From a virus (taxonomy: Duplodnaviria; Heunggongvirae; Uroviricota; Caudoviricetes): a stretch of DNA of 64,000 nucleotides. Below are positions 1,141 to 46,746 of the stretch, piece after piece. Under the pieces are notes generated by a model. The model did no database searches. It had not been told where the DNA came from and was given only the letters and a program-made list of their open reading frames with translations. A program made the translations under genes and the position numbers. The stretch lies in IMG/VR virus record IMGVR_UViG_3300045836_000008, one strand, 5' to 3'. Position 1 is the stretch's first letter. Each line of letters begins with the position of its first letter.

Positions 1141-2553
1141 ATGGAACGCATAGAGAAGACTATCCTGCAAAGTCTGATCTACAATGAAGGGTACATGCGC
1201 AAGGTGTACCCTTTCTTGAAGGCTGAATATTTCACCGATCAGATTGATGCGCAGATGTTCAAAACGATTGCCGGGTTCATCAACACGTACAACGCGTGTC
1301 CGAGCAAAGAAGCAATCGAGATTTCGCTACAGAACGACAAGACAGTAGGAGAAGACAGCTACGAACAGTGCATCGAAGAACTGCGTGAATATTCGGCATC
1401 CGAATCAGTCGATCAGTTCTTGATTGACGAGACGGAGAAGTTCTGTAAAGACAAGGCCGTGTTCAATGCCATCACACGATCCATCAAGATCATGGACGGC
1501 AAGGACAAGGAAATCGGACAGGACGGCATCCCGCAGCTTCTACAAGATGCCTTGGCTGTCGCGTTCAATACGAACGTGGGCCACGATTACTTCGAAGATG
1601 CAGAACGACGTTTCGAGTTCTACAACAAGGAAGAAGAACGGATTCCGTTCCACCTTGAACTGTTGAACAAGGTCACGAAGGGTGGACCGCCGAAGAAAAC
1701 CCTGACGTGTGTTCTCGCGCCGACCGGTGCAGGTAAGTCGCTGTTCATGACTGATTGGGCTTCGTACCTTGTCAGCATCGGCTACAACGTCCTGTACATC
1801 ACGGCGGAAATGGCAGAAGAGCGCATCGCAGAACGTAACGATGCGAACCTGCTAGATGTGCCCCTTGACCAACTGAAGAAGATGGACAAGGACGCGTTCC
1901 TTGGACGCATGGGTAAGATTCGTGCGAAGACCCAAGGCCGGATGTTCATCAAAGAGTATCCGACATCGAGCGCACACGTAGGCCACTTCAAGGCGCTGTT
2001 GAACGAACTGAAGGTCAAGCAGAAGTTCGTCCCCGACATCATCTTCGTGGACTACATCAACATCTGTCTGTCGCAACGGTACAAGGCTGGCGGCAATGCC
2101 AATAGCTACACCATCGTCAAGGCAACAGCAGAAGAACTGCGCGGTCTGGCAGTTGAATACAATGTCCCGGTCGTCACGGCCACGCAGGTAAATCGCGATG
2201 GTATGGACAACAGCGACATTGACATGACAAACACATCCGAATCTATGGGCTTGCCGATGTCCCTTGACATCTTCTTCGCACTGATCCCGACTGAAGAGTT
2301 GGAAGCGATGAACCAGATCATGATTAAGCAGTTGAAGAACCGCTTCGGTGACATCAACTACTACAAGCGGTTTGTCGTTGGCATCGACCGATCAAAGATG
2401 CGTCTGTACGATGTCGAGACGAACGCACAAGAGAACGTAGGCAAGGACGTTGGCGAGAAGAAGGGCTACGAGTCCGACACCTTCAAGCAAGCCGCAGAGA
2501 AGGTCGCAGCCAAGCCGAAACCCGGATTCGATTTCGCTGGAATCAAATTCTGA
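1141..2553 (+). CDS. 41: replicative DNA helicase, DnaB family (T4 gp41-like)
   Basis: 470 aa, the same size as T4 gp41. Walker A APTGAGKS, RecA-fold helicase motifs (VDYINI, TATQVNRDG), N-terminal DnaB-like domain. Located downstream of uvsX as in T4. Confidence 0.9.
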   Translation: MERIEKTILQSLIYNEGYMRKVYPFLKAEYFTDQIDAQMFKTIAGFINTYNACPSKEAIEISLQNDKTVGEDSYEQCIEELREYSASESVDQFLIDETEKFCKDKAVFNAITRSIKIMDGKDKEIGQDGIPQLLQDALAVAFNTNVGHDYFEDAERRFEFYNKEEERIPFHLELLNKVTKGGPPKKTLTCVLAPTGAGKSLFMTDWASYLVSIGYNVLYITAEMAEERIAERNDANLLDVPLDQLKKMDKDAFLGRMGKIRAKTQGRMFIKEYPTSSAHVGHFKALLNELKVKQKFVPDIIFVDYINICLSQRYKAGGNANSYTIVKATAEELRGLAVEYNVPVVTATQVNRDGMDNSDIDMTNTSESMGLPMSLDIFFALIPTEELEAMNQIMIKQLKNRFGDINYYKRFVVGIDRSKMRLYDVETNAQENVGKDVGEKKGYESDTFKQAAEKVAAKPKPGFDFAGIKF

Positions 2554-3074
2554 TGCCGAAAGCAAGAGAACTGCCGTCACAAGCAGTTCTTCAGACGATG
2601 TTCCATTACGACCGCGCGACCGGCGAACTGTTCGCCAAGGTTGACGGTCATCTGGAACCGCTGAAGATCAAGGCTGACCGTGACGGCCACACAAGCTTCA
2701 CCCACAACGGTCATTACTGGTCCCTGAAACGCACCATAGCCGCCCTGTTGGGTCTGCCGGTCACGACCGATACACACGTGGCCCTTATCAACGGGAACGC
2801 CTTAGACGCCCGCTATTCGAATCTACAGGTGCTTACGCCTGAAGAGAACGCGGCGATGAAGAAGCGCAACCCGAACGTGGAATATGTCGAACCCGGCATC
2901 ATCTACAGCTACATCATCGACAAGTTCATGGTGCGTACCGGGTATCGAGACGTGAAGCGTCGTCGTGACCGGCACTATGCCACGCTGGAAGAAGCCCGCG
3001 CGCACCGCGATGCACTGATTGCAACCATGCGCAAAGAAATTCAGGCACGCCCGGAACGGTTCGATTTCGAGTGA
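2553..3074 (+). CDS. HNH homing endonuclease with C-terminal AP2 DNA-binding domain
   Basis: HNH_3-type motif (HVALINGNALDARYSNLQVLTPEEN) plus an AP2-like YATLEEARAHRDAL segment. Start overlaps the helicase stop (TGATG). Confidence 0.7.
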   Translation: MPKARELPSQAVLQTMFHYDRATGELFAKVDGHLEPLKIKADRDGHTSFTHNGHYWSLKRTIAALLGLPVTTDTHVALINGNALDARYSNLQVLTPEENAAMKKRNPNVEYVEPGIIYSYIIDKFMVRTGYRDVKRRRDRHYATLEEARAHRDALIATMRKEIQARPERFDFE

Positions 3075-3116
3075 TCGCCCTAAATATTTCCGTCAACAAC
3101 TGCGGGAGTTGCGGAA

Positions 3117-3791
3117 ATGTTTCTGGCACACAAGATCAACAAGCGTGTCGCGCAACTACATCATGCGTTGTCAACCCGGTCAGTGATCGGGCACGACGAA
3201 CTTCAGAAGGTCTTCTACGAAGCGGTCAAACCACTCGGTGTCCGAGTTGTCATGATCCGTGACGATCTACCGAAGAATGCTTTTGCGATTGGTGGTTTTT
3301 ATGAACCGTGGCGAAAGCGCCAACCCATCTGTATCGAATTGTTCGTCAGCAAGAAGACCGATTCACTTCGGATTTCAAAGAAGTGGCTGTCGAACACTCT
3401 GTTCACGTTGTACCAAACTCTGTCGCATGAACTGCTGCACAAACAGCAGTACAGCCATCGCAGACCGGATTCAGTCGTTTGGCTGATCCCGTTGGCCGGT
3501 GGTGTCGAGATGGACGAACAGCAAGCCTATCTCGCAGAAATAGACGAGATTGACGCCTACGCGCATGACATTGCGCTGGAACTGGTCTTCTACCATCCCG
3601 ACGATTGCTTCGAAGTCCTACGGACAATGCAATCGCACAAGATTTCGTCATGGCAGCTTTACGTGGATGCCTTCGACGGCACTGACTGGTCCGAGATTCA
3701 TAACCGGTTGCTGAAGAAAGTGTTCGAACATCTAACCCGTATCCGGGAAAATGGAGAACAATTCTCATGTACGAAAATATCTTTTCGGTGA
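3117..3791 (+). CDS. hypothetical protein with HExxH motif (possible SprT-like zinc metallopeptidase fold)
   Basis: SHELLHKQQ HExxH motif. Otherwise unrecognised. Confidence 0.45.
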   Translation: MFLAHKINKRVAQLHHALSTRSVIGHDELQKVFYEAVKPLGVRVVMIRDDLPKNAFAIGGFYEPWRKRQPICIELFVSKKTDSLRISKKWLSNTLFTLYQTLSHELLHKQQYSHRRPDSVVWLIPLAGGVEMDEQQAYLAEIDEIDAYAHDIALELVFYHPDDCFEVLRTMQSHKISSWQLYVDAFDGTDWSEIHNRLLKKVFEHLTRIRENGEQFSCTKISFR

Positions 3792-4039: not shown

Positions 4040-4112
4040 GGGTCGGTAGTTTATCTGGCTAAAACGGCGGACTCCAAACCCGCAGTGCAAGGTTCAAGTC
4101 CTTGTCGGCCCG
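4040..4112 (+). tRNA. tRNA, anticodon CCA (tRNA-Trp)
   Basis: Manual cloverleaf: acceptor GGGTCGG/TCGGCCC (two G-U pairs), U8, D-stem GTTT/AAAC with GG in the D-loop, anticodon loop CTCCAAA (U33, CCA, A37), T-arm CAAGG-TTCAAGT-CCTTG, discriminator G, encoded CCA at 4113-4115. One A-C mismatch at 31-39. Confidence 0.6.
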
Positions 4113-4167
4113 CCACATACTTGACCGCCAAGAGCGCGGAACTAAAACCTGAAGAGAAGTAGAGAAG

Positions 4168-5162: not shown

Positions 5163-6344
5163 ATGAAAATCGCTGAATTCAACGCCGAAAAGTTCCTGAA
5201 GAAGATCGCGACGTTCAACCGTAAGGCAAAGAAGCTGCAACTGCCGGAAGTCAAGGCCGTCAAGATCGGTTCGGAACTCGTTGAACAGAAGCACAAGGAC
5301 GATGAAGGTAACGTCGAGACGTACTTCATCCAAGTCGATGAATACGACATTCAGGGCGAAATCCCGCGCGTCGGTGGTTGGGCGATTCACTCGAAGGTGC
5401 AGCCCGCCGAACAAGAAGCCGGTAACTTCGTGTACACGAACAAGGGCTTCGAACCGCGTGAATCGCTGCGCACGGTCGGTATGGTCTGCCAGCACTGCAA
5501 CATGGCCCGCCGTCGCGGCACGGTGTACCTGCTTCAGAACAGCGAGACGGGCGAAGAAAAGCTGGTCGGCAAGTCATGCCTGAAGGACTTCTTGCCGGAA
5601 CTGAATATCCTTGAAGTGCTGGCGTATCTGGAAGGCATCGAAAAGCTGTCGTCGGAAGGCAACGTGTACTGCGACGAAGACGGCGAACCGATTGACGGTG
5701 GCTGGCCGCGTAGCGCATGGGTGTACCCGACTTGGGACTTGGTTGCAGAATCGCTGGTCCTGATCCGCAAGTGGGGTTTTGTGTCGAAGGCCGCAGCGCG
5801 TGACAGCTTCGACACCACGGCCACGGCTGACCTGCTTGGCCGTACCGGAAAGGCCCGCAAAGAACTGTACAGCGACGCAGAAATCGAAGCTGTACGCGAT
5901 CAGGTCGAACAGTGCATCGAGTGGATCACGACGCAGGACGCCAAGTCGGACTTCTTCTACAATCTGCAACTGGCATTCAAGCAGAAGGGCGCTGGTTACA
6001 AGATGTTCTCTTTTGTTGCAGCCGGTGTGTTCCAGTGGATCAAGCATCTCGGTGAACTGGAAGCGAAGAAGAACACGAACAAGCGCAACGAGTTCGTAGG
6101 CGAGATTGGCGAGCGCCGGGTGTTCGCAGATGTCAAGATCGTCCGCGAATACGTCAGCGAAGGCCAGTGGGGTTCGACCTTCATCACGACGCTCGAAATG
6201 GTTGACGGGCAATCGCTGGTGTGGTTTGCTTCGAAGCGCGTAGGTGAGATTGGCGAGACGATGACGATCAAGGCAACGATCAAGGAACACAAGATGTACA
6301 ACGATCTTCACCAGACGGTCATCACGCGCGGCGCAAAGATTTGA
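5163..6344 (+). CDS. hypothetical protein (393 aa)
   Basis: Start chosen at the ATG after the family promoter/leader and GGAG. The ORF track extends upstream to 5016. Confidence 0.55.
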   Translation: MKIAEFNAEKFLKKIATFNRKAKKLQLPEVKAVKIGSELVEQKHKDDEGNVETYFIQVDEYDIQGEIPRVGGWAIHSKVQPAEQEAGNFVYTNKGFEPRESLRTVGMVCQHCNMARRRGTVYLLQNSETGEEKLVGKSCLKDFLPELNILEVLAYLEGIEKLSSEGNVYCDEDGEPIDGGWPRSAWVYPTWDLVAESLVLIRKWGFVSKAAARDSFDTTATADLLGRTGKARKELYSDAEIEAVRDQVEQCIEWITTQDAKSDFFYNLQLAFKQKGAGYKMFSFVAAGVFQWIKHLGELEAKKNTNKRNEFVGEIGERRVFADVKIVREYVSEGQWGSTFITTLEMVDGQSLVWFASKRVGEIGETMTIKATIKEHKMYNDLHQTVITRGAKI

Positions 6345-22991: not shown

Positions 22992-23387
22992 ATGAAGACA
23001 CCCGGAATCAAATACGGCCACGACCGTAACGGCAACGAGATTTACCCGCGAGATGGTGAACGCATTCTCGAAGAAGGCGAACCCCTACCCGCAGTCTATC
23101 GACCTTGGCTGAATGGTTCCGGGTGGTTGGGTCCGACCAAGCTGCACACGCATCCGGGCGCAAACCTGACCGCGTGCGTATTCGGCAACTATTGGGCCTA
23201 TGCGGTCCCGGAACGTCAGCCGGTACAACCAGTCATCCAAGAAGTCGAGAAGCCCGCAGAACCGATTCTGGTGGTTCCTGAAGCCATCCCGGACCCGGTT
23301 CCCGAACCAACCCCGGTCGTGAAGACGAAGAAGCGCCGCGCGCAAGAACGTCCCATTACCAACGAACTTATGTTTGACGACGAATGA
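22992..23387 (+). CDS. hypothetical protein with Pro/Glu-rich C-terminal region
   Basis: 131-aa ORF. Confidence 0.5.
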   Translation: MKTPGIKYGHDRNGNEIYPRDGERILEEGEPLPAVYRPWLNGSGWLGPTKLHTHPGANLTACVFGNYWAYAVPERQPVQPVIQEVEKPAEPILVVPEAIPDPVPEPTPVVKTKKRRAQERPITNELMFDDE

Positions 23388-23629
23388 CGACACTCAAAAT
23401 CTCACTGTCCGAACCTTGGGACATCAAGACGAAGGCCGCTGCGGCGAAGTACATCTCCGACAAGATTGAAGAGATGCAAACGCTGTACCAGAACATCATC
23501 TCAGTGGCCGACACGCACGATGTTCGCGTGTCTGAGATGCTTGACTGGCCGGAAGACATCGGCCGCACTGGTCACAACGAAAGCATGCGTGCAGAAGTCT
23601 ACTGGAACCCATCGAGCAAGTATTGCTGA
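23384..23629 (+). CDS. hypothetical protein
   Basis: Start overlaps the previous stop (ATGA). Confidence 0.45.
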   Translation: MTTLKISLSEPWDIKTKAAAAKYISDKIEEMQTLYQNIISVADTHDVRVSEMLDWPEDIGRTGHNESMRAEVYWNPSSKYC

Positions 23630-41030: not shown

Positions 41031-42113
41031 ATGAAGAAGTGGCTTTTGGGTCTTGTACTCGCAGTCTCGTCGGCAGTCGCATTCGCACTCCCGTCCCCGC
41101 ATCAAATCGAAGACGCACTCGCAACGCAGCACTACAGCGATGCTCGTTCGATGGTCCAACAGGTACTTGAAGAGAAGCCGGATTCCGCCCGCGCTCACCT
41201 TCTCGATGCCTACATCCTGATCCACGTCGATCACAACAAGCAAGCCGCATCGCAAGAACTCGACAACGCGCGCCGTCTCGACAAGAAGGGCGATGTCGCC
41301 AACAGTCCGTTGTTCGGTCGCACCGCAGCCGAAATCGACATGACGAAGGCATCGGCCAAGCCCGCACCGGCACAACAGCAAGCGCAACCGGCGCAAGTCG
41401 TCGTGCAAGACGGTACGCAGTTCCAGCCGCAGCCGAAGCATGAAGGCCATCCGTTCCTGACCTTCCTGTTGTTCGCAGCGATCATCGGCTTGATCGGCTA
41501 CATCCTGTACCTGATCTTCCGCCGACCGCGTGTCGTCGTGCAAGAGCGTCATGTCTACCATGCGCCGACCTATGACACCGGCAGTGTCGCAAGCGCCCCG
41601 GCCATCTCGGTTTCGTCGGCCCCGCGTGTGACTTCCACGGTGGTTGAACGCCAAGTCGTCGGCAGTGCCTACGTGTCGCCTTCCCCGGCCCCGGTCATCA
41701 TCAACAACGGCGGTGGTTATGGTCGCGGTTACGGCAACGATGGCTTCGTTGAAGGCATGTTGATCGGTGAGATGATGGAAGAGAACCGCGAGACTCGCCG
41801 CGAACTCGATGCAGACCGCTACGAACGTCGCCGTGAACGCGACAGCTACAGTTCGTCGTCTTCGTCCAGCTACGACGCATCGCCTTCGAGTTCGGAACCT
41901 TCCACGTCCTACGCATCCGACCGTCAGTCGTTCTCGTCGGGCAGCGACGATAGCTGGTCCAGCCGCAGCAGTTCGTCGTATAGCTCGTCATCGTCGGATT
42001 CGTCGTCAAGCTGGTCGTCGGGTTCTTCGTCGTCGGACTACAGTTCGTCCAGCTACGACAGCGGTTCGTCGTCATCGTGGGACAGCGGCAGTTCGTCGGG
42101 TAGCGACTGGTAA
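41031..42113 (+). CDS. membrane protein: signal/TM, TPR-like helical region, a second TM, and an extreme Ser-rich C-terminal low-complexity tail
   Basis: N-terminal hydrophobic LGLVLAVSSAVAFA, internal TM FLTFLLFAAIIGLIGYILYLIF, C-terminal 100 aa about 60% Ser with W/Y/D punctuation (SSSSWSSGSSSSDYSSSSYDSGSSSSWDSGSSSGSDW). Confidence 0.65.
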   Translation: MKKWLLGLVLAVSSAVAFALPSPHQIEDALATQHYSDARSMVQQVLEEKPDSARAHLLDAYILIHVDHNKQAASQELDNARRLDKKGDVANSPLFGRTAAEIDMTKASAKPAPAQQQAQPAQVVVQDGTQFQPQPKHEGHPFLTFLLFAAIIGLIGYILYLIFRRPRVVVQERHVYHAPTYDTGSVASAPAISVSSAPRVTSTVVERQVVGSAYVSPSPAPVIINNGGGYGRGYGNDGFVEGMLIGEMMEENRETRRELDADRYERRRERDSYSSSSSSSYDASPSSSEPSTSYASDRQSFSSGSDDSWSSRSSSSYSSSSSDSSSSWSSGSSSSDYSSSSYDSGSSSSWDSGSSSGSDW

Positions 42114-42162: not shown

Positions 42163-42226
42163 TTGACATGTAAAAGACACATCTGTAGAATGTTTCATTA
42201 TTGAAACACCAGATGTGTCTTTTCAA
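42163..42226 (+). promoter_or_regulatory. promoter TTGACA-17-TAGAAT embedded in a 13-bp-stem hairpin (AAAAGACACAUCU ... AGAUGUGUCUUUU) whose 26-nt loop contains the -10 and an inner hairpin. A weaker family-like element (CTGAAC-gaattcccaaagctgag-AATAGT) lies just upstream at 42121
   Basis: Read directly. Confidence 0.55.
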
Positions 42227-43153: not shown

Positions 43154-43531
43154 ATGACGACGAACGGAACTGGCATCACCCGCGAAGAAGCTGAATCGAT
43201 TCTCAACATGATGAAGTTCAGCGAAGCAGAACAAAGCAGTGGCAGTATCGCGGTCCTGAAGAAGTTGCAGAAGGCTTACCCCGACCTGATCCCGGCATCA
43301 TCGGAATTCGGCAAGATCATCGCCCAAGCTGACGCGCAAGCGAAGGTCACGAAGGCAGAAGCATCGAAGCAAATCAGCGAGAAGATCAAGTCGATCTACG
43401 CGCTGTTCGAAGAATGCGAGAAGATCGCAGACAAAGCGGGTGTCAGTTTCACGTTCGACATGAACGGCACCTACGGCATGGGCGGCACGTACCGCGAAGG
43501 CGAATGGATGTCGTCTTCCGACCAGTGCTGA
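43154..43531 (+). CDS. paralog family member 1: small protein with conserved amphipathic helix (I.E.AG[VI].F.F) and C-terminal ...SSSDQC ending in Cys
   Basis: Shares the KIADKAGVSFTFDM core and the W..SS..C C-terminus with the five genes below. Confidence 0.55.
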   Translation: MTTNGTGITREEAESILNMMKFSEAEQSSGSIAVLKKLQKAYPDLIPASSEFGKIIAQADAQAKVTKAEASKQISEKIKSIYALFEECEKIADKAGVSFTFDMNGTYGMGGTYREGEWMSSSDQC

Positions 43532-43541
43532 ACACAACATC

Positions 43542-43802
43542 ATGAACAACAACCTTGAAGAACGAAGAATGACGATCCAAGCACAACAAGACGCACGCCG
43601 TTCGGCACTGGCCCAAATCTCGGAACAGACCCAGATTGCGCGCGACGCACTGGCAAAGGCCGAACAAATCGCGAAGGAAGCCGGTGTTGGCTTCGACTTC
43701 GACATCGGTGACGGCTATGGCAGCTACTACACCGGCGAGAACCGCGACGGCATGAAGTACGGCTATTGGGACTGGGACGGCTGGGAAGGCTCGGCCTGCT
43801 AA
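43542..43802 (+). CDS. paralog family member 2 (C-terminus ...DWDGWEGSAC)
   Basis: EQIAKEAGVGFDFDIGDGYG core. Last residue Cys. Confidence 0.55.
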   Translation: MNNNLEERRMTIQAQQDARRSALAQISEQTQIARDALAKAEQIAKEAGVGFDFDIGDGYGSYYTGENRDGMKYGYWDWDGWEGSAC

Positions 43803-43842
43803 GAAGTCCTTAAGATCAACTACATCAACAAGAGAAGAACAA

Positions 43843-44124
43843 GTGGCAGCAATTGATTTGAACGAACGCGCCAAGAAGGTCGCAGAACTTGCGGCGCTGA
43901 CTGCGAACATTCAGAAGCAACTCACTGAAGCCGAGAACATCGCAGACGCGTTCGGTATCGAGTTCGTGATGCGTCTCGCTGGTCGTCGCAACACCTACGT
44001 CCCGACCCGTCCCGATGGTGTCACGGAAGAAGACATCGAAGGAACCGATTGGGTTGAATCGGAATCCGATGACGGCTACTACGGCACTGTCACCGGCTGG
44101 ACCAACTCTTCGACGTACTGCTAA
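43843..44124 (+). CDS. paralog family member 3 (C-terminus ...TGWTNSSTYC, GTG start)
   Basis: ENIADAFGIEFVMRL core. Last residue Cys. Confidence 0.5.
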   Translation: MAAIDLNERAKKVAELAALTANIQKQLTEAENIADAFGIEFVMRLAGRRNTYVPTRPDGVTEEDIEGTDWVESESDDGYYGTVTGWTNSSTYC

Positions 44125-44127
44125 ACG

Positions 44128-44415
44128 ATGACCGAACTTCGCAAAATTGATCCGGCCAAGCGTCAAGAAGCCGTTGCCCGCATCGCGAGCAATCTTGACC
44201 GCATGAAGGAACTGATCGCAGAGAACGTGGCGCTTGCCAACGAGTTCGGCATCAACTTCAGCGTCGAAAGCCCGATGCGGTACGAAAGCGGTGTGACGTA
44301 TCTCCCGCCTGTGCCTGAAGATGTCGATCCCGAAGGTACGGATTGGGAAGAATCCCGATACGAAGACTACGATGGTGAGACGGACGGCTGGAAGAACAGT
44401 TCGTCGTACTGCTGA
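44128..44415 (+). CDS. paralog family member 4 (C-terminus ...DGWKNSSSYC)
   Basis: ENVALANEFGINFSVES core. The internal GTDWEES segment is shared with member 3. Last residue Cys. Confidence 0.55.
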   Translation: MTELRKIDPAKRQEAVARIASNLDRMKELIAENVALANEFGINFSVESPMRYESGVTYLPPVPEDVDPEGTDWEESRYEDYDGETDGWKNSSSYC

Positions 44416-44642
44416 TGTCAAAGAAACCGACTAAGGCCGTTGAAATGGCGACGGCCCAACTCGCAGAGAAGGTCGAAAGCATCCGCCAGACTTTGAAGGA
44501 CGCGTGCGATATTGCGGACGCATATGGACTCGAATTCACGTTGCTTGATGAATTCGGGAACTACCTTCGCTATACGGGTCGTGTGTACGATGTTGAATCG
44601 GACTATCACGAAGATGGTGGTTGGTATAGCTCCCACTGCTAA
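44415..44642 (+). CDS. paralog family member 5 (C-terminus ...GGWYSSHC)
   Basis: CDIADAYGLEFTLLDEFG core. Last residue Cys. Start overlaps the previous stop. Confidence 0.55.
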   Translation: MSKKPTKAVEMATAQLAEKVESIRQTLKDACDIADAYGLEFTLLDEFGNYLRYTGRVYDVESDYHEDGGWYSSHC

Positions 44643-44657
44643 CTGAGAAAGAACAAG

Positions 44658-45584
44658 ATGATCGTAATTGGAAGTGAAGCGCTGCGCAAACATGGTATCG
44701 AGACTGGCCGTAAGAAGCTAGACATCGATGTGGTTGGTGAGTACGACGACATTGTTGAATTCGCCAAACAGTTCGGCAACATCCGTGCATGCTACCCGGT
44801 CAGCGATGGCAACAAGCTGGTCGTGAAGACGGACACGATGATCGTTGAAGGCGAAATCACGTGGGAAGGATCGAACGCGGCACAACTGCGTGACCTGATC
44901 CTGAATGATCCGGGCACGGCCATCGAGAAGCGCCCGAACGGCTACGTGATCCCTTCAGTGAATCTGCTGTACATGCTGAAGATGTCGCATCGGTATCTGC
45001 GCAACAGCCCGCACTTCCTGAAGACGATGCGTGACATTCAGATGCTTCGCCTATTCGGCGCAAAGATCGAAGAACGTCACGAAGAGTTCTACAAGGAACG
45101 CATGCGCGTCACCTACGATTACGGTCATCCGAAGCTGGACCAGTCGAAGAAAGATTTCTTCAGCGATGACGGTATCAAGTACGTCTACGATCACGACTCG
45201 ATCCACGAAGCAGTGAAGCAACTGGACCGACCGGCCTACACGTACTACAAGCCGGATCAAAGCGAAGTGAACTGTTCGAAGGACATGTTCTTCGCTGCAC
45301 CGGAGATGGTTCGCCTTCTCGGTGGTCTGGAAGAGTCCTACGTGCTGGCGCTGGAACGGTCGCAGATTCCGTTCCCCGGCAAGTGGACGCCGCAGCGTTC
45401 GTTCGACTTCGCACTGATGAAGGTCTGCACGTCGATCACTAGCGGATGGTTCCGCGAATACTGTTGGGAAAACTATGACAAGATTCGCGAACTGTACGAC
45501 GACAGCTACGTTGATCGGTTCTGGCAGAAGGTTCAAGAAGGTGTGGTGATTCACCACGATCCACAACAACGAGTATATGGCTAA
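44658..45584 (+). CDS. hypothetical protein (308 aa)
   Basis: Long ORF with coding composition. No motif recognised. Confidence 0.55.
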   Translation: MIVIGSEALRKHGIETGRKKLDIDVVGEYDDIVEFAKQFGNIRACYPVSDGNKLVVKTDTMIVEGEITWEGSNAAQLRDLILNDPGTAIEKRPNGYVIPSVNLLYMLKMSHRYLRNSPHFLKTMRDIQMLRLFGAKIEERHEEFYKERMRVTYDYGHPKLDQSKKDFFSDDGIKYVYDHDSIHEAVKQLDRPAYTYYKPDQSEVNCSKDMFFAAPEMVRLLGGLEESYVLALERSQIPFPGKWTPQRSFDFALMKVCTSITSGWFREYCWENYDKIRELYDDSYVDRFWQKVQEGVVIHHDPQQRVYG

Positions 45585-45909
45585 CGAAATTACAGCGGAC
45601 CAGATTGTTCACGCTGGCAACATCAAGTTCTACTTCGAAGACCTTGGCGAAACGCTGACGGTTCGGGGCTATCTGGTCAACCTTCTGCGCAGTCTGTGGG
45701 CGGAAGGTGAAGGGTTCAACAGCAAGCGCCCATACGGCAACAGCGGATGGGAATTCGATCTGTACCGCGCGCTGGTTGACGGTGGCGCGATCAAGGGCAC
45801 GCTGGACGAAGATGGGTATCTCGAAGACTTCGACCGACAAGCGGGCATCGACATGATCTACGCGATCATTGATTCGCTCGAAGGCAACGACGACGATGAA
45901 GACGACTAA
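45577..45909 (+). CDS. hypothetical acidic protein (C-terminus DDDEDD)
   Basis: 110-aa ORF. Confidence 0.45.
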   Translation: MANEITADQIVHAGNIKFYFEDLGETLTVRGYLVNLLRSLWAEGEGFNSKRPYGNSGWEFDLYRALVDGGAIKGTLDEDGYLEDFDRQAGIDMIYAIIDSLEGNDDDEDD

Positions 45910-46162
45910 GCAGGAAGCCGCCAAGATCATCGATGACAAGCTGAAACAGGCTTGGCAATTGGTCGAAGATTGCGTGAAGCTGGCCGAACATTCCGGCTGT
46001 TGCTTCGAACTTCCGTGGGGTGGTGAAGGCACGGATCAGCGCGGCATGGGTGCGACGTATGTGCCCGAGAGTGCGAGCGAGCAAGACAAGAAGTGGATGT
46101 GTAATGACGGTTGGGGTGGTAACTACTACACCGGCTGGCAACCTTCGGCTGGCACATGCTGA
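45896..46162 (+). CDS. paralog family member 6 (C-terminus ...TGWQPSAGTC)
   Basis: ATG at 45896 in frame with track ORF 45869. VKLAEHSGCCFELPW core and WGGNYYTGW. Last residue Cys. Confidence 0.5.
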   Translation: MKTTKQEAAKIIDDKLKQAWQLVEDCVKLAEHSGCCFELPWGGEGTDQRGMGATYVPESASEQDKKWMCNDGWGGNYYTGWQPSAGTC

Positions 46163-46338: not shown

Positions 46339-46746
46339 ATGTTCAAGAAGTTCGCAGTAGCAGTAGCAGGTATGGCGCTTGCAATGTCGGCCCACGCATT
46401 CAGCGCGGCAGCGGGTCACGCATCGGTATCCGTGGCACACGTCAGTGTCGTGTCGTCGGCCCATCCGGTCGCAGTGGCCGCACCGCACGTATCGGTCGTA
46501 GAACCGGTCGCGACGGCCCACGTAGCACCAACCCCCGCCGCGAAGCCAGCAACCCCGCCTGTGGCCGCTAAACCGGCTGCAACGGCAACGTCGCAGGTTG
46601 CGAAAGAAGCGACGGTCGCAAAGACGACGCTGGTTCCGAAGGCAACCGTTCCGCACACGCCGATCACGGTGGTTCGTGGCAAGACGGCAACCGCAGCAGC
46701 GTATGCTTCGGAAGCCAGTGCAGCATCGGCGGCACGCGCGAAGTAA
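46339..46746 (+). CDS. Sec-secreted His/Val/Ser/Ala/Pro-rich low-complexity protein
   Basis: Signal peptide MFKKFAVAVAGMALAMSAHA|FS. Repeats AHVSVVSSAHPVAVAAPHVSVVEPVATAHVAP. Ala/Pro/Lys-rich tail. Confidence 0.6.
   Translation: MFKKFAVAVAGMALAMSAHAFSAAAGHASVSVAHVSVVSSAHPVAVAAPHVSVVEPVATAHVAPTPAAKPATPPVAAKPAATATSQVAKEATVAKTTLVPKATVPHTPITVVRGKTATAAAYASEASAASAARAK

What the first reader, a model, noticed from the sequence alone, without database searches (positions are those of the whole stretch)
43154..46162. Tandem array of six paralogous small proteins each terminating in a conserved GW-x-SS-x-C motif with Cys as the final residue
Five consecutive genes at 43154, 43542, 43843, 44128 and 44415, plus a sixth at 45896, encode 75-125-aa proteins. 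Each has an N-terminal amphipathic helix with a conserved core (E.IA.[AE].G[VI].F.[FLM]), a variable Tyr/Gly/Asp-rich middle, and a C-terminus of the form (D/G)GW-x-(N)SS-x-(Y/H)C-stop. The terminal residue is Cys in all six, which is not expected by chance. The variable middle bracketed by conserved termini, together with tandem amplification, resembles diversifying families (anti-defence decoys, receptor-like or modification-substrate peptides). The invariant C-terminal Cys suggests a thiol-dependent function such as metal binding, a disulfide, lipidation or a thioester. No T4 family known to me matches this pattern.
Basis: seen in the sequence. Interest (0 to 1): 0.85.

Follow-up and report, generated by a model that had tools for sequence, protein, structure and literature searches.

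The report
Cys-tailed small proteins partnered with phage nucleotidyltransferase
The six small genes (plus a seventh elsewhere in the window) belong to a large, uncharacterised phage protein family whose conserved tail ends in cysteine, and they almost always sit beside one conserved phage enzyme of the nucleotide-transferring kind, so the two probably work together in a way nobody has yet studied.

Summary
All six ORFs, plus a seventh at 23384-23629, belong to one family (phrog_899, function unknown). It has 669 representatives at 50% identity. The fold is a small acidic helix-plus-sheet, followed by a flexible tail G-W-x-x-S-[S/A]-x-x-C (or W-x-x-S-x-C). Cys is the last residue in 167 of 172 representatives.

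The two genes are tightly linked. Of 85 NTase loci from viral contigs and MAGs, 81 carry 1-6 same-strand tail-bearing ORFs, at a median of 15 nt away. This holds in RB69-like, rV5-like, T5-like, jumbo and Myxococcus phages. T4 itself (1-76 kb scanned) has neither gene. The module is essentially virus-only.

Paralogues are conserved as orthologues in sister phages, so they are not fast-diversifying decoys.

Best reading: the small proteins are dedicated partners of the NTase, most likely acceptor substrates nucleotidylylated on the tail. A MenA1-like inhibitor role is the main rival. Function is untested. I found no literature on the pair.

The parts
43154..43531 (+). Member 1 (125 aa), with a 55-aa N-terminal extension; tail ...EWMSSSDQC
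   Evidence: ORF. phrog_899 E = 2.4e-10. Family HMM E = 2e-19. 60% identical orthologue in sister phage L006.
43542..43802 (+). Member 2 (86 aa); short tail ...DGWEGSAC
   Evidence: ORF. phrog_899 E = 8.9e-8. Orthologues at 46-60% identity in L005-L007.
43843..44124 (+). Member 3 (93 aa, GTG start); tail ...GWTNSSTYC
   Evidence: ORF. phrog_899 E = 1.8e-9. Identical database protein P0080. 53% identical to member 4, so the most recent duplication in the array.
44128..44415 (+). Member 4 (95 aa); tail ...DGWKNSSSYC
   Evidence: ORF. phrog_899 E = 5.1e-8. Identical to P0001, seen on 8 contigs up to 173,961 bp.
44415..44642 (+). Member 5 (75 aa); short tail ...GGWYSSHC. Its start overlaps the stop of member 4.
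   Evidence: ORF. phrog_899 E = 1.1e-5. Family HMM E = 8e-13.
44658..45584 (+). Partner enzyme (308 aa): Pol-beta-fold nucleotidyltransferase, Pfam DUF7277 + DUF7275, phrog_2141
45577..45909 (+). Intervening 110-aa very acidic ORF (phrog_15618, function unknown). Overlaps both neighbours. Membership of the module is uncertain.
   Evidence: ORF. phrog_15618 E = 4.5e-20. 25 D/E against 8 K/R. Not conserved at this position in other lineages.
45896..46162 (+). Member 6 (88 aa); tail ...GWQPSAGTC; downstream of the enzyme
   Evidence: ORF. phrog_899 E = 6.8e-7. Identical to P0002. The same position downstream of the NTase is kept in L005-L007. AF2 model pLDDT 82.
23384..23629 (+). Member 7 (81 aa), an orphan copy 20 kb away; tail ...YWNPSSKYC
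   Evidence: Family HMM E = 2e-22 and 5e-11. Orthologues P0008, P0016, P0022, P0024 and P0028 all end WNPSSKYC. Neighbours are RNase H and a phosphoesterase; there is no second NTase.
42163..42191 (+). Sigma-70-like promoter match (TTGACA-17-TAGAAT) that could drive the unit from 42215 through the array
   Evidence: 11 of 12 matches. However, the number of such sites in the region is no higher than in shuffles, so this is weak evidence.

Best explanation
The seven small acidic proteins are dedicated partners of the nucleotidyltransferase encoded within the array. Together they form a virus-specific two-component module.

Each small protein has a compact conserved core: a long N-terminal helix packed on a three-stranded sheet whose last strand carries the invariant Trp. 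A variable acidic loop is inserted in this core. A flexible, conserved tail, W-x-x-S-(x)1-3-C, follows at or within three residues of the C-terminus.

I infer that the tail is the element that enters the active site of the MenT/ANT-like enzyme. The most likely chemistry is the one typical of this fold: transfer of a nucleoside monophosphate to a hydroxyl group, here the invariant tail Ser. The neighbouring Cys thiol (and usually the free carboxylate) would help to position the tail or bind the metal. One enzyme would serve several paralogous acceptor proteins. Their differing acidic loops would give the modified products different targets.

Shown: the family, the motif, the enzyme fold class and the gene linkage.
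Inferred: physical interaction, the acceptor residue, and any downstream role (host takeover or counter-defence).
For: 1. Family and motif. There are 669 representatives at 50% identity. W, S and C are invariant. Cys is terminal in 167 of 172.

2. Tail flexibility. In the AF2 model the Trp lies in strand 80-83, and mean pLDDT falls to about 61 over the last residues, which suggests a flexible conserved tail.

4. Linkage starting from the enzyme. 81 of 85 loci hold 1-6 tail-bearing ORFs. All 121 HMM-detected members are on the enzyme's strand. The nearest member is a median of 15 nt away. Three of the four exceptions lack upstream DNA. The linkage also holds in phAPEC8, Acj61, Mx1, BUDD and Mosigvirus.

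5. Linkage starting from the small protein. All eight lineages examined (RSP15, Mendera, vB_PpS_SYP, the window's own lineage, and four further contigs including a 378-kb jumbo phage) have the enzyme nearby. So do 7 of 10 further loci.

6. The tail outlasts the rest of the sequence. Where the N-terminal region has diverged beyond HMM detection, the tail is still there next to the enzyme, for example five FW[VI]PSSM[ES]C copies in L079.

7. Several conserved paralogues per single enzyme fits one enzyme with many substrates or adaptors better than a 1:1 inhibitor.

8. 63 of 172 members have only one Cys, so the Cys acts alone or with a partner molecule.
Against: - No biochemical evidence exists. 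The interaction itself is inferred from synteny only.
- I could not run a complex prediction.
- The closest solved relative, MenT1, is paired with a small upstream helical protein that is an inhibitor, not a substrate.
- An invariant core Tyr could be the acceptor instead of Ser, or there may be no acceptor at all.
- 19 of 196 tails carry 1-3 residues after the Cys, so a free Cys carboxylate is not strictly required.
- One lineage (L114-L116) has a member with no NTase within 6 kb. Member 7 of this window lies 20 kb from the enzyme.
- MenT-type enzymes act on tRNA, so the true substrate could be RNA.
Confidence: 0.4

Rival explanations
1. Inhibitor or regulator (MenA1-like antitoxin). The NTase is a tRNA-modifying enzyme of the MenT type that the phage uses against the host or against competing phages. 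The small proteins bind it and block or time its activity, with the long helix lying across the active-site face and/or the Ser...Cys tail plugging the metal site.
For: - MenT1 is neutralised by MenA1, a 68-aa protein with a 32-residue central helix, encoded immediately upstream, which blocks the active site.
- Here the small genes lie mostly upstream (104 of 121), a median of 15 nt away on the same strand.
- They have a 29-residue N-terminal helix.
Against: - One inhibitor would be enough, yet genomes keep 2-7 diverged copies, each conserved as an orthologue.
- The MenA1 C-terminus is dispensable, whereas here the tail is the most conserved part.
- The module is practically absent from cellular genomes: 5 hits in 185,579 species genomes, all MAG contigs. 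That is unlike toxin-antitoxin systems.
- It occurs in virulent large phages.
- There is no sequence or fold match to any solved antitoxin.
Confidence: 0.27
2. Specificity adaptors. The conserved core and tail dock on the NTase, and each paralogue's acidic loop recruits a different host or phage macromolecule to be nucleotidylylated.
For: - One enzyme with several conserved paralogues that differ mainly in the loop.
- The enzyme is much more conserved than its partners: 66-84% against 44-65% identity with sister phages.
Against: - No precedent that I know of in this NTase group.
- A flexible Ser/Cys tail looks more like a reactive site than a docking peg.
- Untested.
Confidence: 0.1
3. RiPP-like maturation. 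The N-terminal domain acts as a leader. The enzyme activates the tail Ser (O-nucleotidylylation followed by elimination), and the Cys thiol adds to it, giving a lanthionine-type or aminovinyl-cysteine-type C-terminal ring.
For: - Tandem precursor-like genes lie just upstream of an enzyme.
- The S-x(1-3)-C-COOH arrangement resembles the sites of thioether and AviCys rings (my own knowledge of epidermin, cypemycin and the thioamitides).
- The variable S-to-C spacing resembles variable ring sizes.
Against: - The Nif11 leader similarity fails: best score 15.7 bits against a cut-off of 23.8, and only 1 of 50 members matches at E = 0.11.
- No decarboxylase, dehydratase or cyclase was recorded in the annotated neighbourhoods I inspected.
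- The proteins are predicted to be folded domains rather than leader-plus-core peptides.
- No NTase-fold lanthipeptide dehydratase is known to me.
Confidence: 0.07
4. Functionally independent neighbours. The small proteins are acidic decoys or nucleic-acid mimics (anti-defence or host takeover) that merely travel with the NTase gene as a mobile early-gene cassette. The terminal Cys would serve an unrelated role such as metal binding, sulfur carriage as in the DsrC/TusE C-terminal arms, or covalent capture of a host enzyme.
For: - Uniformly acidic: median pI 4.5, net charge about -6.5.
- Located in the early-gene region next to dsbA.
- An orphan copy (member 7) and one lineage without a nearby NTase exist.
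Against: - Adjacency persists across T4-like, T5-like, rV5-like, jumbo and Myxococcus phages whose surrounding genes are otherwise unrelated, usually with a gap of about 15 nt. Hitch-hiking does not explain this well.
- The tail is conserved even where the rest has diverged, and always beside the enzyme.
Confidence: 0.12

Closest known systems
MenAT1 (MenA1 antitoxin / MenT1 nucleotidyltransferase toxin, Mycobacterium tuberculosis)
   Same: - A small protein of about 70 aa, dominated by one long helix, encoded immediately upstream on the same strand.
   Different: - Virus-only distribution.
- 1-7 paralogous small proteins per enzyme.
- The small protein has a sheet and an invariant W-x-x-S...C tail that MenA1 lacks; the MenA1 C-terminus is dispensable.
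- The enzyme has its own Pfam families (DUF7277/DUF7275), not DUF1814.
- Toxicity has not been tested.
MNT-HEPN type VII toxin-antitoxin pairs (a minimal NTase that AMPylates its partner protein)
   Same: A Pol-beta-fold NTase paired with a partner protein that it covalently nucleotidylylates. This is the mechanism I favour here. The comparison rests on my own knowledge of the Shewanella SO_3165/3166 work.
   Different: - The partner here is not a HEPN domain: there is no fold or sequence match.
- The proposed acceptor is a tail Ser rather than a Tyr next to the R-x4-6-H motif.
- Multiple partners per enzyme.
- Found in phages, not in defence islands; no PADLOC hit.
Multi-precursor RiPP systems (for example the prochlorosins ProcA/ProcM) and AviCys peptides
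   Same: - Tandem small genes with a conserved recognition region, next to one enzyme.
- A Ser...Cys pair at the extreme C-terminus.
   Different: - Not a Nif11 or NHLP leader.
- No lanthipeptide or LanD-type enzymes seen nearby.
- The proteins are predicted to fold.
- The conserved part includes the 'core' tail, while the variable part lies in the middle.
RlaP (PF10127), the RNA-ligase-associated Pol-beta NTase of phages
   Same: A phage-borne Pol-beta NTase. Two or three loci place the present enzyme beside Rnl1 or Rnl2.
   Different: - No PF10127 match.
- An RNA ligase lies within 4 kb in only 3 of 85 loci.
- I found no mention of a Cys-tailed partner for RlaP in the passages I read or in the abstract of the 2025 RlaP preprint; I did not read that preprint in full.
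DsrC/TusE sulfur-relay proteins
   Same: A small protein with a flexible C-terminal arm carrying a strictly conserved Cys at or next to the last position. The resemblance is from my own knowledge.
   Different: - No sequence or fold similarity detected.
- The partner is an NTase, not a sulfurtransferase or a PP-loop enzyme.
- Many paralogues.

Membership tests
phrog_899 (phage protein family of unknown function) | Significant match to the family profile | tested here: met
   All six listed ORFs match at E = 1.1e-5 to 2.4e-10, aligned to profile positions ~137-221 of 221. The seventh was detected with a family HMM built here.
Cys-tail family as defined here | C-terminal W-x-x-S-x(1-3)-C with 0-3 residues after the Cys | tested here: met
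   All 7 window members have it. So do 167 of 172 representatives, with Cys last. 172 of 196 tails at NTase loci end exactly in Cys.
Cys-tail family as defined here | Encoded next to a DUF7277+DUF7275 nucleotidyltransferase on the same strand | tested here: met
   In the window, members 1-5 end 16 nt upstream of the enzyme gene and member 6 starts 312 nt downstream of it. Generally, 81 of 85 loci show the linkage.
Pol-beta superfamily nucleotidyltransferase (the partner enzyme) | hG[GS] ... [DE]x[DE] ... third carboxylate motifs, on an alpha/beta NTase core | tested here: met
   [not shown]
MenT/AbiEii (DUF1814) toxins | Sequence membership of DUF1814 with its motifs III and IV | tested here: not met
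   [not shown]
MenT/AbiEii (DUF1814) toxins | Toxicity through nucleotide addition to tRNA 3' ends, neutralised by the cognate partner | not testable with these tools
   Needs expression and tRNA sequencing.
Toxin-antitoxin modules in general | Widespread in bacterial chromosomes, plasmids and prophages | tested here: not met
   Only 5 relatives were found in one genome each of 185,579 species. All are on MAG contigs of 2-167 kb. By contrast, 687 phage records carry the enzyme.
Nif11 leader peptides (PF07862) | Profile match at the gathering score | tested here: not met
   Best score 15.7 bits against a cut-off of 23.8. Only 1 of 50 diverse members matches, at E = 0.11.
RlaP NTase (PF10127) | PF10127 match and association with RNA ligase | tested here: not met
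   No PF10127 hit. An RNA ligase lies within 4 kb in 3 of 85 loci.
Lanthipeptide / AviCys RiPPs | Dehydratase, cyclase or HFCD decarboxylase encoded with the precursors | tested here: inconclusive
   None appears among the precomputed Pfam annotations of about 10 neighbourhoods or among the window neighbours scanned. This was not searched systematically.
Known anti-phage defence proteins (PADLOC-DB) | Profile match | tested here: not met
   No hit at E <= 1 for the enzyme, the 110-aa ORF or three small proteins.

The most novel reading that the evidence does not exclude
Large virulent phages carry a previously unrecognised post-translational system. A virus-specific MenT/ANT-fold enzyme covalently modifies the Ser...Cys tail of a set of small acidic carrier proteins, by nucleotidylylation or by a thioether or other thiol-dependent product derived from it. 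The modified proteins, each with a different acidic loop, then act on different host targets, for example as mimics of the tRNA acceptor end or of nucleic acid that disarm host enzymes. This would be a new class of phage enzyme-plus-multi-substrate effector system.
Probability: 0.3. Interest if true: 0.9.

Novelty: new variant of a known kind. Interest (0 to 1): 0.72.

Why it matters
Both genes are currently annotated only as 'hypothetical', DUF7275/DUF7277 or phrog_899. Yet the enzyme occurs in 687 of about 50,700 sequenced phage records. These include RB69-like, phAPEC8-like, Acinetobacter, Pseudomonas, Klebsiella, Aeromonas and Stenotrophomonas phages, several of them from groups used for therapy. 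It also occurs in more than 2,600 protein clusters from metagenomes.

Recognising that the enzyme always travels with Cys-tailed small proteins turns two unexplained families into one testable module with a defined reactive site: three invariant residues in a 6-9-residue tail.

Whichever reading is right (protein nucleotidylylation, a phage-borne MenAT1-like switch, or something else), it would add a widespread function to the early-gene repertoire of large phages. It also gives a concrete experiment in tractable E. coli phages.

Tried and rejected
- **Nif11 / RiPP leader homology.** Suggested by weak Pfam hits. Rejected at family level.
- **RlaP identity and an RNA-repair role.** Suggested by Rnl1/Rnl2 neighbours in RSP15 and L012 and by the jumbo-phage review. 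Rejected: no PF10127 match, and an RNA ligase lies near the enzyme in only 3 of 85 loci.
- **T4 counterpart.** nrdC.3 has the same length (308 aa) and nrdC.11 is annotated 'nucleotidyltransferase'. Neither matches the enzyme HMM, and no family member or tail motif occurs in T4 1-76 kb. T4 76-169 kb was not scanned.
- **Profile libraries and solved structures.** NCBIfam and PADLOC gave nothing. PDB sequence searches gave nothing meaningful for either protein. Foldseek of the small-protein model against the PDB gave nothing (best E = 3.8). Against BFVD it found only other uncharacterised phage proteins.
- **N-terminal extensions of the longer members.** No Pfam domain.
- **Close relatives of the window.** megablast against sequenced phages found none.
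- **Failed runs.** The search for related loci with the diverse family alignment failed because no stretch was conserved enough. My regular expression for measuring linker length failed (n = 5), so I give no number for it.
- **Literature.** Full-text searches for the DUF and PHROG names, for RB69ORF139c, and for phage NTase plus C-terminal cysteine returned nothing relevant.


Full report
**The observation**

The window holds the six ORFs exactly as described, all on the + strand and all ending in Cys: 43154-43531, 43542-43802, 43843-44124, 44128-44415, 44415-44642 and 45896-46162. A scan of all ORFs for a terminal Cys turned up a seventh member at 23384-23629, ending ...YWNPSSKYC. A family HMM confirmed it.

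In the whole window, 7 of 528 + strand stop-to-stop ORFs end W-x-x-S-x(1-3)-C. None of 558 on the - strand does.

All six listed proteins match one PHROG, phrog_899 ('unknown function'), at the C-terminal end of its profile. None reaches a Pfam, NCBIfam or PADLOC threshold.

**The family**

A profile search of 5.8 billion clustered proteins found 28 close relatives, and every one ends in Cys. An exhaustive HMMER search of 1.84 billion representatives found 669 at E <= 0.001.

Among the 172 sequences I retrieved, 167 end in Cys, 3 have one residue after the Cys, and 2 look truncated.

The consensus is M-x-K-x-E-A-...-L-I-x-E-C-E-x-I-A-D-E-x-G-V-x-F-S-F-...-Y-G-M-G-G-x-Y-x-P, then an acidic variable linker, then G-W-x-[SPA]-S-[SA]-x-x-C. 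W, S and C are invariant in both alignments.

The tail has two lengths, W-x6-C and W-x4-C. The W-to-S distance is fixed and the S-to-C distance varies. Both types occur in this window.

The proteins are uniformly acidic, with median pI 4.5. 63 of 172 have no other Cys, which argues against an intramolecular disulfide or metal site.

AlphaFold2 on member 6 with 27 aligned sequences gives pLDDT 82 and pTM 0.71. It shows a 29-residue helix, strands at 53-56 and 80-83 (the latter carrying the Trp), and lower confidence over the last residues. This describes a small folded core with a flexible, conserved tail.

Foldseek finds nothing in the PDB. In BFVD it finds only uncharacterised proteins of T4-like and Pseudomonas phages, including RB69ORF139c.

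Between members 5 and 6 lies a 308-aa ORF, 44658-45584. It matches Pfam DUF7277+DUF7275 (E = 1e-10 and 1.4e-70) and phrog_2141.

An alignment of 34 homologues shows invariant G5, S6 and D22, with D24, E64 and E66 at >=90%. This is the signature of Pol-beta-fold nucleotidyltransferases. There are also many invariant polar residues in the helical C-terminal domain.

It is not RlaP (PF10127), the RNA-ligase-associated NTase discussed for phages.

**The linkage**

Starting from small proteins, eight lineages all have a DUF7277/DUF7275 gene zero to a few genes away:
- Ralstonia phage RSP15
- Stenotrophomonas phage Mendera
- the T5-sized Pseudomonas phage vB_PpS_SYP
- the window's own lineage
- four unrelated metagenomic contigs, including a 378-kb jumbo phage

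Starting from the enzyme, phAPEC8, Acj61, Myxococcus phage Mx1, Xanthomonas phage BUDD and two Mosigvirus (RB69-like) phages each carry 1-5 tail-bearing ORFs beside it.

On 85 enzyme loci fetched from IMG/VR and from GTDB genomes:
- 65 have a family HMM hit within 4 kb.
- 16 of the remaining 20 have a same-strand ORF with the tail motif but a diverged body.
- Three of the last four lack upstream DNA.

That gives 81 of 85 loci, with 1-6 copies each. The nearest copy is a median of 15 nt from the enzyme gene. All 121 HMM-detected copies are on the enzyme's strand, and 104 of them lie upstream. The same motif hits 2 of 5,862 opposite-strand ORFs.

In a further family-first sample, 7 of 10 loci had the enzyme. 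The three without it are near-identical contigs from one lineage.

A distant Gordonia phage homologue lacks profile positions 31-93 of the NTase and has no small partner.

The enzyme is found in 687 phage records and in more than 2,664 protein clusters. It appears in only 5 of 185,579 species genomes, all of them MAG contigs. T4 itself has neither gene in 1-76 kb, which includes the region syntenic with the Mosigvirus locus.

**Evolution of the array**

Sister phages (L005-L007) keep the same order: member-1-like, member-2-like, member-3/4-like, member-5-like, enzyme, member-6-like. Small-protein orthologues are 44-65% identical, against 66-84% for the enzyme. Members 3 and 4 are the most recent duplicates at 53% identity.

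The copies are therefore old and individually maintained, not rapidly diversifying.

Genes in the window are tightly packed or overlapping. A sigma-70-like site at 42163-42191 could drive the unit, but such matches are no more frequent here than in shuffled sequence. A DsbA-like regulator gene precedes the array.

**Interpretation**

The tail is conserved more strongly than the body, is predicted to be flexible, and is present almost wherever the enzyme is. The simplest account is that the tail engages the enzyme.

Given the chemistry of the enzyme's structural relatives, I favour nucleotidylylation of the invariant tail Ser, with the Cys assisting. One enzyme would serve several acceptor proteins whose acidic loops differ.

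The strongest rival comes from the best structural match. MenT1 is blocked by MenA1, a 68-aa single-long-helix protein encoded just upstream. The gene order and the long helix here fit that picture. The multiple conserved paralogues, the indispensable-looking tail and the virus-only distribution do not.

Adaptor, RiPP-like and 'independent neighbour' readings remain possible at lower probability.

I rate the partnership itself at about 0.85 and the specific substrate mechanism at about 0.35-0.4.

**Novelty**

Both families are catalogued only as unknowns. Full-text searches found nothing on them or on their pairing.

I file the module as a new variant of a known kind, an NTase with a small protein partner. 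There is a substantial chance that it is something further afield.

Noticed in passing
window 23384-23629 (+): A seventh family member (81 aa, ...YWNPSSKYC) lies 20 kb from the array, between a T4-type RNase H gene and a phosphoesterase gene, with no second NTase nearby. Its orthologues in relatives keep the same tail.
   Followed up: yes
window 45577-45909 (+): A 110-aa, very acidic ORF (25 D/E against 8 K/R; phrog_15618, unknown function) overlaps both the end of the NTase gene and the start of member 6. It is not conserved at this position in other lineages.
   Followed up: partly
window 41031-42113 (+): A 360-aa protein with an N-terminal signal-like segment, a weak TPR match, a mid-protein hydrophobic stretch and an extreme Ser-rich low-complexity C-terminal third. 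The gene at the same position in sister phage L005 carries DUF2076.
   Followed up: no
window 46339-46746 (+): A 135-aa Ala/Val/Pro-rich protein that starts with a signal-peptide-like sequence (MFKKFAVAVAGMALAMSAHA). No family match.
   Followed up: no
window, upstream of the starts at 43154, 43542, 43843, 44128, 44415, 44658 and 45896: None of the genes has a recognisable Shine-Dalgarno sequence. The upstream regions are A-rich (for example gagaaagaacaag ATG). This may say something about the unknown host or about reliance on translational coupling.
   Followed up: no
window 4040-4115 (+): A single tRNA-Trp (CCA) gene is the only tRNA in the 64-kb window.
   Followed up: no
L114, L115 and L116 (IMG/VR contigs), member at about 5725-6234: One lineage carries a family member ending ...GWQHSAVCY (one residue after the Cys) with no DUF7275 NTase within 6 kb. 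This is the clearest exception to the linkage.
   Followed up: partly
L020 (Gordonia phage ClubL gp16), 2330-3121: Actinophage homologues of the NTase lack profile positions 31-93, part of the catalytic core, and have no Cys-tailed neighbour. The gene sits next to a tRNA cluster.
   Followed up: partly
L002 (RSP15 ORF155 and ORF157) and L001 (vB_PpS_SYP gp48): Some members continue past the conserved Cys (…CNGY, …CGYL, or a 21-residue extension). A free Cys carboxylate is therefore not universal.
   Followed up: partly
P0216 (99% identical to window 44658-45584): JGI names this NTase 'biotin operon repressor'. No profile search here supports that, so it is probably an annotation artefact. Three phage records call homologues 'nucleotidyltransferase' or 'putative nucleotidyl transferase'.
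   Followed up: partly
L015 (Acj61), L003 (Mendera) and L005-L007: NAD-salvage genes (NAMPT/NAPRTase, NadR-like, PRPP synthetase) lie within 1-7 kb of the module in several T4-like lineages. This could be plain early-region synteny or a functional hint.
   Followed up: no
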